Shown here one piece after another: positions 3,682-20,067 of a stretch of 32,000 bases of DNA. The number at the start of each line of letters is the position of its first letter. Position 1 is the stretch's first letter. The translations under genes were made by a program, and so were the position numbers. The DNA is from Candidatus Saccharimonadota bacterium (GTDB lineage: Bacteria; Patescibacteriota; Microgenomatia; UBA1406; GWC2-37-13): positions 780,001 to 812,000 of the forward strand of contig CP065004.1 in assembly GCA_016700135.1 (NCBI GenBank), read 5' to 3'. The notes below the pieces were generated by a model. That model saw nothing but the letters and a program-made list of their open reading frames with translations, was not told the origin of the DNA and made no database searches.

Positions 3682-4275
3682 ATGGTAAAACTGAATTCAA
3701 AACAGCTTCGTGATATTCCTGAGACGGAAGCAGACGCGTTTCGGATTGACCTGAAAAGGAACCCTATCTATCTTATTGTCGAAAATGTATACGATACGTA
3801 CAATATCGGCGGTTTATTTCGGCTTGCCGACGGATTGGCTGTAACAAAGCTTTATTTGTGCGGAGAAATGGAAACTCCACCGCATCATAAGATTGAGAAA
3901 GCTTCAGTTGGGACGTATAAAATTGTTCCTTGGGAGTATAAGGAATCGGCGATTGAAGCTATTGAAGAACTAAGAGCTAAGTATCCAGTCATCCCGACCA
4001 GAGCGGAGGGATCCCTCGACGTTGCTCGGGATGACAAAAAAGGTGTTCAAATACTCGCAGTGGAGCAGTCCGATAACTCAAAAGTATATACAGAGGTGAA
4101 ATATGCGGCACCTGTTGCGCTTATAGTCGGGAATGAAACATTCGGAGTGACGGCAGAGACATTGGCAGCATGTGATCATACTGTTGAAATTCCCATGTGG
4201 GGAATCAATAAATCATTGAATGTCATCGTTTCGGCGGCTATTGTAGCTTTTCATGTGATGGAGAAGATACGCTGA
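3682..4275 (+). CDS. SpoU/TrmH-family RNA 2'-O-methyltransferase
   Basis: NVYDTYNIGGLFRLADGLAV (motif 1), LIVGNETFGVT (motif 2) and EIPMWGINKSLNVIVSAAIVAFHV (motif 3, the knot region). Confidence 0.9.
   Translation: MVKLNSKQLRDIPETEADAFRIDLKRNPIYLIVENVYDTYNIGGLFRLADGLAVTKLYLCGEMETPPHHKIEKASVGTYKIVPWEYKESAIEAIEELRAKYPVIPTRAEGSLDVARDDKKGVQILAVEQSDNSKVYTEVKYAAPVALIVGNETFGVTAETLAACDHTVEIPMWGINKSLNVIVSAAIVAFHVMEKIR
3988..4035. repeat. 48-bp palindromic repeat (fused L/R arms of the GTCATCCCGAC...GGGATGAC family) in frame inside the trmH-like CDS
   Basis: Sequence GTCATCCCGACCAGAGCGGAGGGATCCCTCGACGTTGCTCGGGATGAC. It has 10-bp terminal inverted repeats and a central palindrome GAGGGATCCCTC. Its arms match those at 6365-6393, 6687-6714 and 19999-20067. 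Confidence 0.75.
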
Positions 4276-4424
4276 GCCCGAAGGGGGAATCTCCAGGAGC
4301 CGACGATGGGAATCGAACCCACGACCTTCTTCTTACCAAGAAGATGCTCTACCACTGAGCCACGTCGGCAATCTATGACCTCCCCGCCAGCTGGCGGGGC
4401 GTTCTACCACTGAACCATTCGGGC
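4275..4424 (-). other. split Gly-like tRNA shell enclosing tRNA-Thr (disrupted tRNA or tRNA-like element)
   Basis: 5' piece (4424->4381): GCCCGAA/TG/GTTC-AGTGGTA-GAAC/G plus the perfect 18-nt palindrome CCCCGCCAGCTGGCGGGG plus AGGTC. 3' piece (4294->4275): ..GATTCCCCC/TTCGGGC/T. The acceptor strands GCCCGAA and TTCGGGC are 7/7 complementary. The T arm and anticodon loop are non-canonical. Confidence 0.4.
4298..4369 (-). tRNA. tRNA-Thr (anticodon GGU)
   Basis: Hand-folded cloverleaf: GCCGACG/TG/GCTC-AGTGGTA-GAGC/A/TCTTC-TTGGTAA-GAAGA/AGGTC/GTGGG-TTCGATT-CCCAT/CGTCGGC/T. No CCA is encoded. Confidence 0.9.
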
Positions 4425-5701: not shown

Positions 5702-6352
5702 ATGGACATCAAATATCTTGGACACTCATCTTTCTTCATAAAAACCAAACAGGCAAAAATCGTGACTGATCCTTATAGCGCGGAAAGCACCGGTATGAAA
5801 TTCCCCAAAACTGAGGCAGATATCGTGACTGTTTCGCATGATCACAGAGACCACAATTATATTGAAGGCATAAAAGGGGAACCTTTGGTACTCACCTGGC
5901 CGGGAGAATATGAAAAAAATGAGGTGCGTATCACCGGTTTCAGTACCTTTCATGACGCAAAAGAAGGCACCGAACGCGGTGCAAACGTGATGTACAAATT
6001 CGAAGATAATGAGATTTCACTTCTTCATTGTGGAGATCTCGGTCATCTTCTAAATGATGAAATTACCGAGCAGATAGGGGCCGTTGATATACTTATGGTT
6101 CCCGTCGGTGGATTTTTCACGATAAATGCCGAAGATGCAGTCAAAGTCATAAACCAGATTGAGCCTTCCATGGTGATCCCGATGCACTACAATCATCCGG
6201 GATTGAATCAGGAGACATTCGCAAATCTTCAGGATCTTGCCACGTTTCTCAAAGCAATCGGAGCGGAAGATGTGCAACCGATAGATAAAATAACCGTAAA
6301 AAAAGACCAATTAAACCCCGAAAGTACTCAGGTAGTTGTGTTGAGTATTTAA
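5702..6352 (+). CDS. MBL-fold metal-dependent hydrolase (UPF0173-like)
   Basis: MDIKYLGHSSFFI..., HxHxDH motif (SHDHRDHNY), then HCGDLGH and PMHYN. I prefer the ATG at 5702 over the track start at 5651, which overlaps the hsp20 terminator. Confidence 0.85.
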   Translation: MDIKYLGHSSFFIKTKQAKIVTDPYSAESTGMKFPKTEADIVTVSHDHRDHNYIEGIKGEPLVLTWPGEYEKNEVRITGFSTFHDAKEGTERGANVMYKFEDNEISLLHCGDLGHLLNDEITEQIGAVDILMVPVGGFFTINAEDAVKVINQIEPSMVIPMHYNHPGLNQETFANLQDLATFLKAIGAEDVQPIDKITVKKDQLNPESTQVVVLSI

Positions 6353-6364
6353 TCGGTTATTTTA

Positions 6365-6714
6365 GTCATCCCGACCGTTAGTGGAGGGATCCCTTCAATA
6401 TGAAGAATTATTACGTCTACATCATGGCGAGTGGGTCCGGAACCCTGTATATTGGTATGACAAATGATCTTGAACGCCGGGTATATGAACACAAACATAA
6501 CATAATAGAAGGGTTTTCACAGAAATATTCATGTCACAAATTGGTGTATTATGAGCAATATCAGGAAGTGACAGATGCCATAGAGCGGGAGAAACAGCTC
6601 AAAAAATGGCGAAGATCAAAAAAGGAGTTCCTTATAAGTAAACAAAATCCGGCTTGGGTTGATCTGGGACAAGAATGGAAGTAAAAGGGATTCCTCGACG
6701 TTGCTCGGAATGAC
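6365..6714 (+). mobile_element. GIY-YIG ORF bracketed by inverted hairpin arms (candidate selfish unit)
   Basis: L arm GTCATCCCGACCGTTAGTGGAGGGATCCC (6365-6393) ends 6 nt before the ATG. R arm GGGATTCCTCGACGTTGCTCGGAATGAC (6687-6714) starts 2 nt after the TAA. The arms are imperfect reverse complements, and the same arms occur without an ORF elsewhere. Confidence 0.6.
6400..6684 (+). CDS. GIY-YIG nuclease-superfamily protein (small stand-alone type)
   Basis: YYVYIMASGSGTLYIGMTNDLERRVYEH...KLVYYE....A..REKQLKKW is the classic GIY-(x10)-YIG..R..E.N pattern. 94 aa. Confidence 0.9.
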   Translation: MKNYYVYIMASGSGTLYIGMTNDLERRVYEHKHNIIEGFSQKYSCHKLVYYEQYQEVTDAIEREKQLKKWRRSKKEFLISKQNPAWVDLGQEWK

Positions 6715-19998: not shown

Positions 19999-20067
19999 GT
20001 CATCCCGACCGTTAGTGGAGGGATCCCTCATGATCAAAAGGGATTTCTCGACTTCGCTCGAAATGAC
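19999..20067. repeat. 69-bp ORF-less hairpin repeat (same family as the GIY-YIG arms)
   Basis: The L arm is 29/29 identical to 6365-6393. A 12-nt spacer TCATGATCAAAA follows. The R arm GGGATTTCTCGACTTCGCTCGAAATGAC matches 6687-6714 at 24/28. It fills the udk-to-deaminase intergenic gap. Confidence 0.8.

What the first reader, a model, noticed from the sequence alone, without database searches (positions are those of the whole stretch)
6365..6714. GIY-YIG nuclease ORF sits exactly in the loop of a dispersed hairpin repeat
The 94-aa GIY-YIG ORF is bracketed by arms that are imperfect reverse complements of each other. L is GTCATCCCGACCGTTAGTGGAGGGATCCC and ends 6 nt before the ATG. R is GGGATTCCTCGACGTTGCTCGGAATGAC and starts 2 nt after the TAA. 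The identical L arm and a 24/28 R arm recur at 19999-20067 separated by only 12 nt, and a fused version occurs at 3988-4035. The nuclease gene therefore occupies the loop position of a repeat that also exists in ORF-less form. The 12-nt spacer of the empty copy (TC-ATG-ATC-AAAA) resembles the junctions of the full copy (..ATG...TAA-AA). This is compatible with an ORF deletion or with an empty homing site. The pattern suggests a small selfish element with MITE-like derivatives, or an endonuclease that targets the hairpin. That relationship is my inference.
Basis: partly seen in the sequence, partly recalled or inferred. Interest (0 to 1): 0.7.

Follow-up and report, generated by a model that had tools for sequence, protein, structure and literature searches.

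The report
Ssn hairpin-cutting nuclease with its repeats
This is a Candidate Phyla Radiation example of the Ssn system published in 2025: a tiny GIY-YIG nuclease gene bracketed by copies of the DNA hairpin repeat that family members cut as single-stranded DNA. It is a known kind of system, but this copy was gained recently.

Summary
A 94-aa GIY-YIG ORF (6400-6684) lies between two inverted 28-29-nt repeats (6365-6393, 6687-6714). ORF-less pairs of the same repeat lie at 19999-20067 and 3988-4035.

It is not a new kind of element. The protein is 51% identical to Neisseria SsnA, the founding member of the Ssn family of site-specific single-stranded DNA nucleases (Chenal et al. 2025, PMC11893778). 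Each "arm" is one complete unit of the family's hairpin motif: GTC, then a palindrome, then C. The published family shows the same repeat-gene-repeat layout.

What my checks add:
- **Variant motif.** This variant escapes the published search pattern.
- **Arrangement near the gene.** In 67 metagenomic loci the units are 28-fold enriched next to the gene and almost always convergent.
- **Arrangement elsewhere.** Away from the gene the units occur mostly as convergent pairs, as REP sequences do in REPINs.
- **Self-folding units.** Each unit folds on itself, shown by compensatory changes. The ORF therefore sits between two hairpins, not in the loop of one.
- **Recent gain.** All three repeat loci of the window, including the whole 350-nt gene module, are missing at the same sites in a sister genome (92% identity in dnaB).
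- **In-frame copy.** One pair sits in frame inside a SpoU methylase gene.

Verdict: new member of a known kind. Whether it moves is suggested but not shown.

The parts
6365..6393 (+). 5' Ssn-related hairpin unit (GTC + ATCCC...GGGAT + CCC), forward orientation. It ends 6 nt before the ssn start codon. Its 3' half contains GGAGG 12 nt before the ATG, a possible Shine-Dalgarno sequence (inference).
   Evidence: An identical 29-mer recurs at 19999-20027. The strain variant L001 has one G->A change in the stem.
6400..6684 (+). ssn gene: a 94-aa single-domain GIY-YIG nuclease of the Ssn family.
   Evidence: Pfam PF01541 E=7e-15. 51% identity to the N. gonorrhoeae SsnA orthologue, E=7e-29. Y7, Y17, R27, H31 and E64 are invariant in the alignment. 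NCBI names it GIY-YIG nuclease family protein, Candidatus Roizmanbacteria.
6687..6714 (-). 3' Ssn-related hairpin unit, reverse orientation (reads GTCATTCCGAGCAACGTCGAGGAATCCC on the minus strand). It starts 2 nt after the stop codon.
19999..20067 (.). ORF-less convergent pair: + unit 19999-20027, 12-nt spacer, - unit 20040-20067. It lies between the uridine kinase stop (20072) and the amidohydrolase start (19975), both on the minus strand.
   Evidence: Folds as ssDNA at -14.4/-16.3 kcal/mol, z -3.0/-4.0. Absent at the same site in the sister genome L206; a pair of a different subtype is there in the outgroup L207.
3988..4035 (.). ORF-less overlapping pair (+ unit 3988-4015, - unit 4008-4035), 48 nt, in frame inside the SpoU/TrmH methylase gene 3682-4275. 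It encodes VIPTRAEGSLDVARDD.
   Evidence: The closest orthologues (179 aa; the six closest 84-91% identical outside the gap, P0129 79%) lack 18 residues here. The DNA alignment shows a 54-nt gap.

Best explanation
The ORF encodes an Ssn-family nuclease. Ssn proteins are monomeric, single-domain GIY-YIG enzymes. In the characterised members they recognise a specific hairpin repeat only when the DNA is single-stranded, only on one strand, and nick a few nucleotides 5' of it.

The two 'arms' are two copies of that cognate hairpin unit (GTC, a palindrome AT-YY-C...G-RR-AT, then CCC). They are placed convergently, so the unit reads GTCAT... on the top strand upstream of the gene and on the bottom strand downstream.

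By analogy, the enzyme would nick the top strand just left of 6365 and the bottom strand just right of 6714. That is at the two outer edges of the 350-nt module.

The ORF-less copies at 19999-20067 and 3988-4035 are convergent pairs of the same unit, comparable to REPINs or Neisseria NIMEs. They are further substrates of the enzyme, and possibly non-autonomous derivatives that it spreads.

**Shown here:** the homology, the conserved catalytic residues, the unit structure and its covariation, the enrichment and orientation around homologous genes, the predominance of pairs, and the presence/absence difference with a sister genome.

**Inferred:** that this protein cuts these units, where it cuts, and that cutting leads to movement rather than, or as well as, a host function such as trimming incoming or exposed ssDNA.
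For: **(1) Family membership.**
- tblastn of the protein finds one place in N. gonorrhoeae (E=6e-19, 94% coverage).
- That place is a 94-aa ORF surrounded by NTS repeats.
- Pairwise BLASTP gives 51% identity, E=7e-29. This passes the paper's criterion of E<1e-10 and 75% coverage.
- Nm SsnA is also 94 aa, and Y6A, Y17A or E64A each abolished its nuclease activity while ssDNA binding remained. The matching Y7, Y17 and E64 are invariant in alignment A1.
- The nearest solved structures are UPF0213 proteins at only 30 bits.

**(2) Motif.** NTS is CGTCATTCCCGCG-MAV-GCGGGAATCYRG. The window's six units share the GTC, the AT-started palindrome and the C after it. Those are the positions the paper found critical for cutting and binding.

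**(3) Association, tested independently on 67 metagenomic loci of homologues.**
- 37 have at least one strictly defined unit within 120 nt of the gene.
- 20 have exactly '+ upstream, - downstream'. None has the opposite arrangement.
- Unit density is 4.35/kb near the gene against 0.157/kb beyond 300 nt.

**(4) Dispersal.** None of the 120 8-kb loci returned carries an ssn gene. 72 of 100 close unit pairs are convergent, with spacers mostly 12-60 nt.

**(5) Intra-unit pairing.**
- 151 of 158 hits are Watson-Crick paired at both variable stem positions, against about 53 expected.
- Within the window, the R unit beside ssn (ATTCC..GGAAT) and the R unit in SpoU (ATCCC..GGGAT) have the same loop and differ by a compensatory pair.

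**(6) Recent gain.**
- dnaB is 91.9% identical between the window and L203, and about 82% to L204.
- Both relatives have a 45-nt Lactamase_B-DnaB spacer where the window has 412 nt containing the module.
- The sister also lacks the SpoU and uridine kinase pairs.
- 26 kb of sister sequence holds no genuine unit, against 6 in the 32-kb window.
Against: - The published degenerate SRM pattern HGTCWYN(0-2)YYVSBRHN(0-5)WNVSBRGN(0-2)RNCYNB finds nothing in the window. All six units have CCGA(S)C where the pattern needs YYVSBR.
- Single units here fold weakly as ssDNA: -1.5 to -4.3 kcal/mol, no better than shuffles. The Neisseria NTS folds at -11.2, z -4.3. Recognition may therefore differ, or depend on non-canonical G.A pairs that the energy model ignores.
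- The orientation differs from N. gonorrhoeae. There the unit abutting the stop codon is forward and the nearest upstream unit is reverse.
- No target-site duplication is visible at any of the three loci. The non-coding flank to the right of the module does not align with the sister beyond chance, so precise insertion is not proven.
- Another Roizmanbacteria Ssn (P0092) sits in a single genomic context in all 21 contigs read that carry it. The window's protein has no relative at 90% identity or more in the protein collection (P0001, cluster of one). Both fit a stable single-copy gene better than an actively copying element.
- No biochemical data exist for any CPR member.
Confidence: 0.85

Rival explanations
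1. Autonomous mobile element. On this reading SRM-ssn-SRM is an IS-like transposon that moves through a single-stranded intermediate, using the GIY-YIG nuclease as its transposase. The ORF-less pairs are its non-autonomous, MITE/REPIN-like derivatives. This builds on the best explanation rather than excluding it. It differs in claiming that movement is the function.
For: - The whole module and both ORF-less pairs are absent from the same sites in a sister genome with 92% identity in dnaB. By parsimony against the outgroup, the module and the SpoU pair were gained in the window's lineage.
- The L unit beside ssn and the L unit at 19999 are identical, 29 of 29.
- The convergent orientation would place the predicted nicks at the outer ends of the module.
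- Pairs of different subtypes have entered the same SpoU loop independently in other Roizmanbacteria.
- Different pair subtypes occupy the same uridine kinase spacer in the window and in the outgroup.
- The paper's authors note the IS-like architecture.
Against: - There is no target-site duplication, and the junction with the sister is not alignable.
- A nuclease alone does not explain rejoining or copying.
- ssn appears to be single-copy here, and P0092 is fixed in one context across 21 contigs.
- None of 120 repeat-bearing loci in other genomes carries ssn. That resembles the single-copy, domesticated RAYT pattern.
- Presence/absence could also come from recombination between genomes.
Confidence: 0.35
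2. Domesticated host function. On this reading the nuclease and its dispersed hairpins serve the cell, as proposed for Neisseria. They trim single-stranded DNA that carries the repeats during uptake, recombination or replication. That modulates which incoming DNA is integrated. The repeats beside the gene are incidental, or autoregulatory.
For: - In N. meningitidis, deleting ssnA raises transformation with NTS-bearing DNA about 5-fold, and mutated repeats abolish the effect.
- The single-copy, context-stable gene in P0092 fits this.
- The family is large and old: 4,637 cluster representatives at E<=1e-10.
Against: - It does not explain why units flank the gene convergently, within about 5-15 nt of its start and stop, in a third of loci.
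- It does not explain why gene and flanks appear together as one indel relative to the sister.
- Natural transformation has not been shown for this organism.
Confidence: 0.4
3. Generic REP-type transcription terminators or mRNA stabilisers that merely happen to lie next to a small nuclease gene.
For: - The pair at 19999-20067 begins 4 nt after the uridine kinase stop codon and folds strongly.
- The units are mostly intergenic.
Against: - No terminator-like site was called at any unit.
- Units are 28-fold enriched next to ssn homologues, with a strict orientation rule.
- One pair sits inside a coding sequence and is translated.
- The conserved GTC and trailing C lie outside the stem and give the unit a polarity that a terminator does not need.
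Confidence: 0.05
4. Homing endonuclease with an empty target site. On this reading the GIY-YIG protein cuts the ORF-less pair as dsDNA, and the gene is copied in by repair.
For: - The geometry fits: the ORF lies where the ORF-less pair has a 12-nt spacer.
- GIY-YIG homing endonucleases exist.
Against: - At 94 aa, the GIY-YIG domain match spans residues 3-75, leaving no room for a separate DNA-binding domain. Its only NCBIfam match, to group I intron endonucleases, is far below cut-off at 17.8 against 56 bits.
- Tested family members do not cut dsDNA.
- ORF-less pairs are common, yet none of 120 repeat-bearing loci holds the gene.
- The sister's empty site holds no pair at all, so the module did not enter a pre-existing pair there.
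Confidence: 0.04

Closest known systems
Ssn nucleases with NTS/SRM hairpin repeats (SsnA of Neisseria meningitidis; Chenal et al., Nat Commun 2025, PMC11893778)
   Same: - A 94-aa single-domain GIY-YIG protein, 51% identical to the Neisseria orthologue, with the same catalytic Tyr/Tyr/Glu.
- Repeat units with GTC, an AT-started palindrome and a trailing C.
- The repeat-gene-repeat layout.
- Many ORF-less repeats elsewhere.
   Different: - The unit variant (CCGASC stem, 5-bp outer stem, weak predicted fold) is not matched by the published search pattern.
- The flanking units are strictly convergent and abut the start and stop codons. In N. gonorrhoeae the gene sits between whole pairs, with a forward unit at the stop.
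- The host is a CPR/Patescibacteria lineage, a group the paper's main text does not name.
- There are no biochemical data for this member.
REPIN-RAYT systems (REP doublets and REP-associated tyrosine transposases; Bertels & Rainey 2011, PMC3116915)
   Same: - A single-copy gene flanked by inverted copies of a short hairpin repeat.
- The same repeat dispersed mainly as convergent pairs with a short spacer.
- Recognition of ssDNA hairpins.
   Different: - The enzyme is a GIY-YIG nuclease, not an HUH/Y1 transposase, so the chemistry is unrelated.
- No rejoining activity is known.
Neisseria intergenic mosaic elements (NIME) bounded by dRS3 repeats
   Same: Short spacers bounded by inverted dRS3/NTS units. 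The pairs at 1303-1405 and 1875-1981 of L002 look just like the window's ORF-less pairs.
   Different: NIMEs are described as arrays with repeated spacer families (own knowledge). Here there are isolated pairs with short or no spacers.
Rickettsia palindromic elements (RPE)
   Same: A short palindromic repeat inserted in frame in a conserved protein-coding gene and translated. Here that is the 48-nt pair in SpoU. The Ssn paper lists Rickettsia among SRM-rich genomes.
   Different: RPEs are about 100-150 bp (own knowledge). Sequence relatedness to these units was not tested.
GIY-YIG homing endonucleases (I-TevI type)
   Same: The catalytic fold.
   Different: No DNA-binding domain and no intron context. 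Family members act on ssDNA only.

Membership tests
Ssn nuclease family (cd10448; Chenal et al. 2025) | Single-domain GIY-YIG protein of about 90-150 aa | tested here: met
   94 aa. Pfam GIY-YIG covers residues 3-75, E=7e-15, and there is no other domain.
Ssn nuclease family (cd10448; Chenal et al. 2025) | BLASTP hit to Neisseria SsnA with E<1e-10 and at least 75% coverage (the paper's operational criterion) | tested here: met
   Tested against the N. gonorrhoeae orthologue (L002:1513-1797, 94 aa, the only hit in that genome, flanked by NTS). 51% identity over 85 of 94 residues, E=7e-29 pairwise. tblastn E=6e-19. The exact query CAX49033.1 was not available.
Ssn nuclease family (cd10448; Chenal et al. 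2025) | Catalytic residues equivalent to Y6, Y17 and E64 of Nm SsnA | tested here: met
   Y7, Y17 and E64 (plus R27 and H31) are invariant in the 26-sequence alignment that includes the Neisseria protein.
Ssn nuclease family (cd10448; Chenal et al. 2025) | Top CDD hit is cd10448 (GIY-YIG_unchar_3), not cd10456 (UPF0213) or another subfamily | not testable with these tools
   No CDD library was available. Indirect evidence: 86 bits to Neisseria SsnA against 30 bits to the UPF0213 structures 1zg2 and 1ywl.
Ssn nuclease family (cd10448; Chenal et al. 2025) | SRM on both flanks within 500 bp, as defined by the published degenerate pattern | tested here: not met
   The pattern HGTCWYN(0-2)YYVSBRHN(0-5)WNVSBRGN(0-2)RNCYNB gives 0 matches in the window on either strand. 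All six units carry A at the pattern's S position (CCGASC).
Ssn nuclease family (cd10448; Chenal et al. 2025) | Flanking hairpin units with the functional features of NTS: GTC 5' of the palindrome, a paired stem, C directly 3' of it, and a defined polarity | tested here: met
   Units lie 6 nt before the start and 2 nt after the stop. The stem covaries, 151 of 158 against 53 expected. The same arrangement is seen in 20 of 67 homologous loci, with 28-fold local enrichment.
Ssn nuclease family (cd10448; Chenal et al. 2025) | Strand-specific binding of the repeat as ssDNA and cleavage a few nt upstream, with no activity on dsDNA or RNA | not testable with these tools
   This needs purified protein and oligonucleotide assays.
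REPIN-RAYT | Associated gene encodes an HUH/Y1 (IS200/IS605-like) transposase | tested here: not met
   The gene is GIY-YIG. The resemblance is in architecture only.
REPIN-RAYT | Gene flanked by inverted repeat units, with the same units dispersed as inverted pairs | tested here: met
Insertion sequence / MITE | Terminal inverted repeats plus a target-site duplication, and multiple identical copies | tested here: inconclusive
   The inverted ends are present. No duplication is visible at the three loci. The gene has no relative at 90% identity or more in the protein collection. The sister genome lacks all three insertions.
GIY-YIG homing endonuclease | Nuclease domain joined to a DNA-binding domain, in an intron or free-standing phage context, cutting dsDNA | tested here: not met
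   At 94 aa there is no second domain. The NCBIfam group I intron endonuclease match is 17.8 bits against a cut-off of 56. The gene lies in a chromosomal intergenic site between Lactamase_B and DnaB.

The most novel reading that the evidence does not exclude
SRM-ssn-SRM may be a still-active mobile unit: a previously unrecognised, GIY-YIG-based class of ssDNA-hairpin transposable element, the counterpart of IS200/IS605 and RAYT with unrelated chemistry. On this reading its ORF-less convergent pairs are non-autonomous derivatives that can even settle in frame inside essential genes. This Roizmanbacteria lineage would then record a recent invasion, with the gene and at least two pairs gained since the split from a sister whose dnaB is 92% identical.
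Probability: 0.3. Interest if true: 0.7.

Novelty: new member of a known kind. Interest (0 to 1): 0.33.

Why it matters
The finding rediscovers, from raw sequence alone, the Ssn/SRM system published in 2025. As a discovery it is therefore not new.

It still matters in two ways.

- **Reach of the published pattern.** It extends the family into Candidate Phyla Radiation bacteria, with a repeat variant that the published search pattern misses. Published counts of repeat-flanked ssn genes (42% flanked on both sides) and of repeat-rich genomes may therefore be underestimates.
- **A handle on the open question.** The paper leaves open whether the repeat-gene-repeat module is, or was, a mobile element. 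The comparison with a sister genome that lacks the module and both ORF-less pairs at the same sites is a clean natural before/after case. The strict convergent orientation adds to it, because it places the predicted nicks at the module's outer ends. Together these make the question directly testable by genome census and by read-level searches for excision products.

Ssn enzymes are also being developed as sequence-specific ssDNA-cutting tools, so a new enzyme/site pair has practical value.

Tried and rejected
- **Rfam.** The scan of the window at gathering thresholds found only two tRNAs and nothing at the repeats.
- **NCBIfam.** Gave no family name, only a sub-threshold match to group I intron endonucleases.
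- **PDB by sequence.** Found only UPF0213 structural-genomics entries and no Ssn structure.
- **Published SRM pattern.** No match in the window. I therefore used my own unit definition: GTC[AT][CT], at least 5 perfect outer stem pairs, palindrome of 14-39 nt, trailing C. This is strict, so the association figures are lower bounds.
- **Genome-wide census in the source genome.** The copy number in the 1.45-Mb genome is therefore unknown.
- **Multi-copy test.** P0092, seen on 21 contigs, turned out to sit in one context in many samples.
- **Insertion junction.** Alignment of the non-coding flank to the right of the module with the sister scored no better than shuffles. The exact junction and any target duplication could not be defined.
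- **Terminator reading.** Rejected after the scans found no terminator-like site at any unit.
- **Spacer as an ORF remnant.** Rejected as unsupported, for the reasons given in the full report.
- **Paper supplements.** The SRM alignments and genome lists were not held.
- **Not run.** Structure prediction and fold search, because the fold and family were settled by sequence.
- **One Pfam call failed.** One search used a wrong frame, and I did not repeat it.
Full report
**1. The observation**

- The 29-nt L arm GTCATCCCGACCGTTAGTGGAGGGATCCC is at 6365-6393 and ends 6 nt before the ATG at 6400.
- The ORF 6400-6684 encodes 94 aa.
- The 28-nt R arm is at 6687-6714 and starts 2 nt after the TAA.
- The ORF matches Pfam GIY-YIG (PF01541) at E=7e-15 over residues 3-75.
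- The identical L arm recurs at 19999-20027. It is followed by a 12-nt spacer and a 24/28 R arm at 20040-20067.
- At 3988-4035 the two arms overlap by 8 nt.

A pattern covering all arms, GTCATYYCGASC-N5-7-GAGRRATCCC, matches six times in the window as three '+ then -' pairs. It matched never in 100 shuffles.

**2. What the surroundings are**

The window comes from a Candidatus Roizmanbacteria genome (Candidate Phyla Radiation) with a 1.45-Mb contig.
- The nuclease gene lies between a Lactamase_B-fold hydrolase gene (ending at 6352) and dnaB (starting at 6765).
- The pair at 19999-20067 lies between the stop of a uridine kinase gene and the start of an amidohydrolase gene, both on the minus strand.
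- The 48-nt overlapping pair at 3988-4035 lies in frame inside a SpoU/TrmH methylase gene and is translated as VIPTRAEGSLDVARDD.

**3. Identification**

A literature search led to Chenal et al. 2025 (PMC11893778). That paper makes these points:
- SsnA of Neisseria meningitidis is a 94-aa single-domain GIY-YIG protein (CDD cd10448).
- It binds the hairpin repeat NTS (CGTCATTCCCGCGMAVGCGGGAATCYRG) only as single-stranded DNA and only on one strand.
- It cuts a few nucleotides upstream of the repeat.
- The three bases before the palindrome matter most for cutting. The C just after the palindrome matters most for binding.
- ssn genes across bacteria are flanked by such 'Ssn-related motifs' (SRM): 71% have at least one and 42% have them on both sides.
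- The authors note that NTS-ssnA-NTS looks like an insertion sequence, and they compare it with RAYT/REP.

I tested membership directly.
- tblastn of the window's protein against the plasmid collection hit a mislabelled N. gonorrhoeae chromosome once, at E=6e-19 over 94% of the query.
- That place is a 94-aa ORF embedded in NTS repeats.
- It is 51% identical to the window's protein, E=7e-29. This passes the paper's own criterion.
- In an alignment of 25 homologues plus the Neisseria protein, Y7, Y17, R27, H31 and E64 are invariant. Y6, Y17 and E64 are the residues whose mutation abolished nuclease activity (ssDNA binding remained) in the paper.
- The nearest solved structures are UPF0213 proteins at only 30 bits.
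- The family is large, with 4,637 50%-identity cluster representatives at E<=1e-10.

**4. The arms are SRM units, of a variant type**

All six units have GTC, a palindrome starting with AT, and C right after it, as NTS does. The published degenerate SRM pattern nevertheless matches none of them, because they read CCGA(S)C where it requires YYVSBR.

Each unit pairs with itself.
- The genome-collection scan did not constrain the two Y and two R stem positions. Of its 158 hits, 151 are Watson-Crick paired at both positions (TC/GA 64, CC/GG 52, TT/AA 31, CT/AG 4). About 53 are expected from the column frequencies.
- Within the window, the R unit beside ssn (ATTCC...GGAAT) and the R unit in SpoU (ATCCC...GGGAT) share the same loop and differ by a compensatory pair.
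- The L and R arms of one pair mismatch each other at these positions in two of the three pairs.

So the gene sits between two inverted hairpin units, not in the loop of one hairpin.

One caveat applies. With standard DNA energy parameters the single units here fold weakly, at -1.5 to -4.3 kcal/mol and no better than shuffles. The Neisseria NTS folds at -11.2 (z -4.3), and the pairs here fold at -13 to -16 (z -3 to -4) through inter-unit pairing.

**5. Is the association systematic?**

I fetched 80 metagenomic loci encoding homologues. I then searched them for strictly defined units: GTC[AT][CT], at least 5 perfect outer stem pairs, and a trailing C.

Of the 67 loci with at least 120 nt on both sides:
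- 37 have a unit within 120 nt of the gene.
- 20 have exactly '+ upstream, - downstream'.
- 1 is (+,+), 3 are (-,-) and none is (-,+).
- The units typically end 5-15 nt before the start and begin 0-12 nt after the end of homology.
- Unit density is 4.35/kb beside the gene against 0.157/kb more than 300 nt away.

It adds an orientation rule that I did not find stated in the paper's main text. N. gonorrhoeae differs: its gene lies between whole pairs, and a forward unit abuts the stop codon.

**6. The ORF-less form**

The genomes span Binatia, Chloroflexota, Verrucomicrobiota, Acidobacteriota, Patescibacteria, Bacteroidales, Clostridia and others.
- None of the 120 loci returned encodes an Ssn homologue.
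- Among close neighbours (150 nt or less), 72 pairs are convergent, 18 divergent and 10 tandem. Convergent spacers are mostly 12-60 nt, most often about 30.

The dispersed form is therefore a convergent pair, as in REPINs and in Neisseria NIMEs.

- The shared AAAA belongs to the conserved 3' extension of the unit; both R units read ATCCCTTTT.
- Spacers elsewhere are unrelated.
- A similar short spacer occurs in an unrelated Patescibacteria pair (L077).

**7. Gain relative to a sister genome**

Contigs of two relatives keep the gene order CLIPPER-SpoU-(152 aa)-[HSP20]-Lactamase_B-DnaB. dnaB nucleotide identity is 91.9% between the window and L203, 82.0% between the window and L204, and 81.3% between L203 and L204. 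L203 (GCA_964504235.1) is therefore the sister and L204 the outgroup.
- Both relatives have a 45-nt Lactamase_B-DnaB spacer with no ssn and no unit. The window has 412 nt containing the 350-nt module.
- Both lack the 18 codons in SpoU.
- The sister has a 26-nt uridine kinase-amidohydrolase spacer without a pair. The outgroup has, at that site, a convergent pair of a different subtype.
- In 26 kb of sister sequence there is no genuine unit, against six in the 32-kb window.

By parsimony the module and the SpoU pair, and probably the uridine kinase pair, were gained in the window's lineage.

Other Roizmanbacteria SpoU orthologues (P0138, and P0155 = L219 5304-5360) carry in-frame pairs of yet other subtypes in the same loop. 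Entry into this tolerant loop has therefore happened more than once.

There are limits to this evidence.
- No target-site duplication is visible.
- The flank to the right of the module does not align with the sister beyond chance.
- Another Roizmanbacteria ssn (P0092) is fixed in one context in 21 contigs.
- The window's protein has no relative at 90% identity or more in the collection.

This matches the RAYT picture of one stable gene and many repeats as well as it matches an autonomous transposon.

**8. Mechanism proposed**

*Shown:*
- The protein is an Ssn-family GIY-YIG nuclease with an intact active site.
- The flanks are polar, self-pairing units of the family's motif, arranged convergently.

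*Inferred from the characterised homologues:*
- The enzyme binds each unit when that strand is single-stranded and nicks a few nt 5' of GTC.
- That places one nick left of 6365 on the top strand and one right of 6714 on the bottom strand, at the outer ends of the module.
- It would nick likewise at the outer ends of each ORF-less pair.

*Open:* whether these nicks lead to excision and copying, or serve a host role as in Neisseria transformation control.

The simple terminator scan found nothing at the units.

**9. Novelty and score**

This locus is a new member, in CPR bacteria, with a repeat variant outside the published search pattern.

The parts I did not find in the paper's main text are:
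- the convergent-orientation rule;
- the predominance of pairs;
- the in-frame SpoU insertion;
- the before/after comparison with the sister genome.

These bear on the mobility question the paper leaves open. I found no other paper linking GIY-YIG nucleases with REPIN-like repeats. Interest is modest (0.33). The mobile-element reading is the most novel one not excluded, at a probability of about 0.3.

Noticed in passing
window 3988-4035 (inside SpoU ORF 3682-4275); L219 5304-5360: A 48-nt repeat pair is inserted in frame in a SpoU/TrmH methylase gene and adds about 16-18 residues. The closest orthologues (179 aa) lack it. More distant Roizmanbacteria orthologues (P0138, P0155) carry in-frame pairs of other subtypes in the same loop. 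This recalls Rickettsia palindromic elements. The Ssn paper reports only 2% of NTS inside genes.
   Followed up: yes
L206 3119-3149 (sister genome, uridine kinase-amidohydrolase spacer): This stretch of the sister, which runs from the 26-nt spacer into the amidohydrolase start, contains GTCATTACCAATTTTTTTTAGTTATGAC. That string begins GTCAT and ends ATGAC, where the ATG is the amidohydrolase start. It could be a footprint of a lost pair or chance.
   Followed up: partly
L207 3128-3199 (outgroup relative): At the same intergenic site where the window has its ORF-less pair, the outgroup has a convergent pair built from two other unit subtypes: ATCCCCGA...TCGGGGAT, and the NTS-like ATTCCCAC-GAAA-GTGGGAAT. 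This suggests repeated occupation of the same gene-end spacer.
   Followed up: partly
window 12791-14875 (GC 0.57-0.61 at 13000-15000 against about 0.43 elsewhere): A 694-aa ORF with an N-terminal hydrophobic segment and long Pro/Thr-rich linkers (PTATPT... repeats; direct-repeat family at 13478-13575) accounts for a sharp local rise in GC. No family search was completed for it.
   Followed up: no
L001 6848-6876 (Logan contig of the same locus, SRR31558899): A strain variant carries a G->A change in the stem of the 5' unit (GGAGGGAT becomes GGAAGGAT), breaking one pair. The ORF is identical.
   Followed up: no
homologues P0361-P0510; P0007, P0041 and others: Many Ssn homologues are called as 100-180-aa proteins with N- or C-terminal extensions. 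These are probably ORF calls that run through the stop-free flanking repeat units, giving tails such as VIPSEA.../...RDD. This inflates apparent length diversity in the family.
   Followed up: no
L002 = NZ_CP119140.1 (PLSDB): A 2.17-Mb Neisseria gonorrhoeae chromosome is filed as a plasmid in the plasmid collection. It was useful here, but it is a database mislabel.
   Followed up: no
window 4296-4369 and 11855-11938, minus strand: tRNA-Thr(GGT) lies directly downstream of SpoU, and tRNA-Leu(CAA) is also present. Neither is adjacent to a repeat unit.
   Followed up: no
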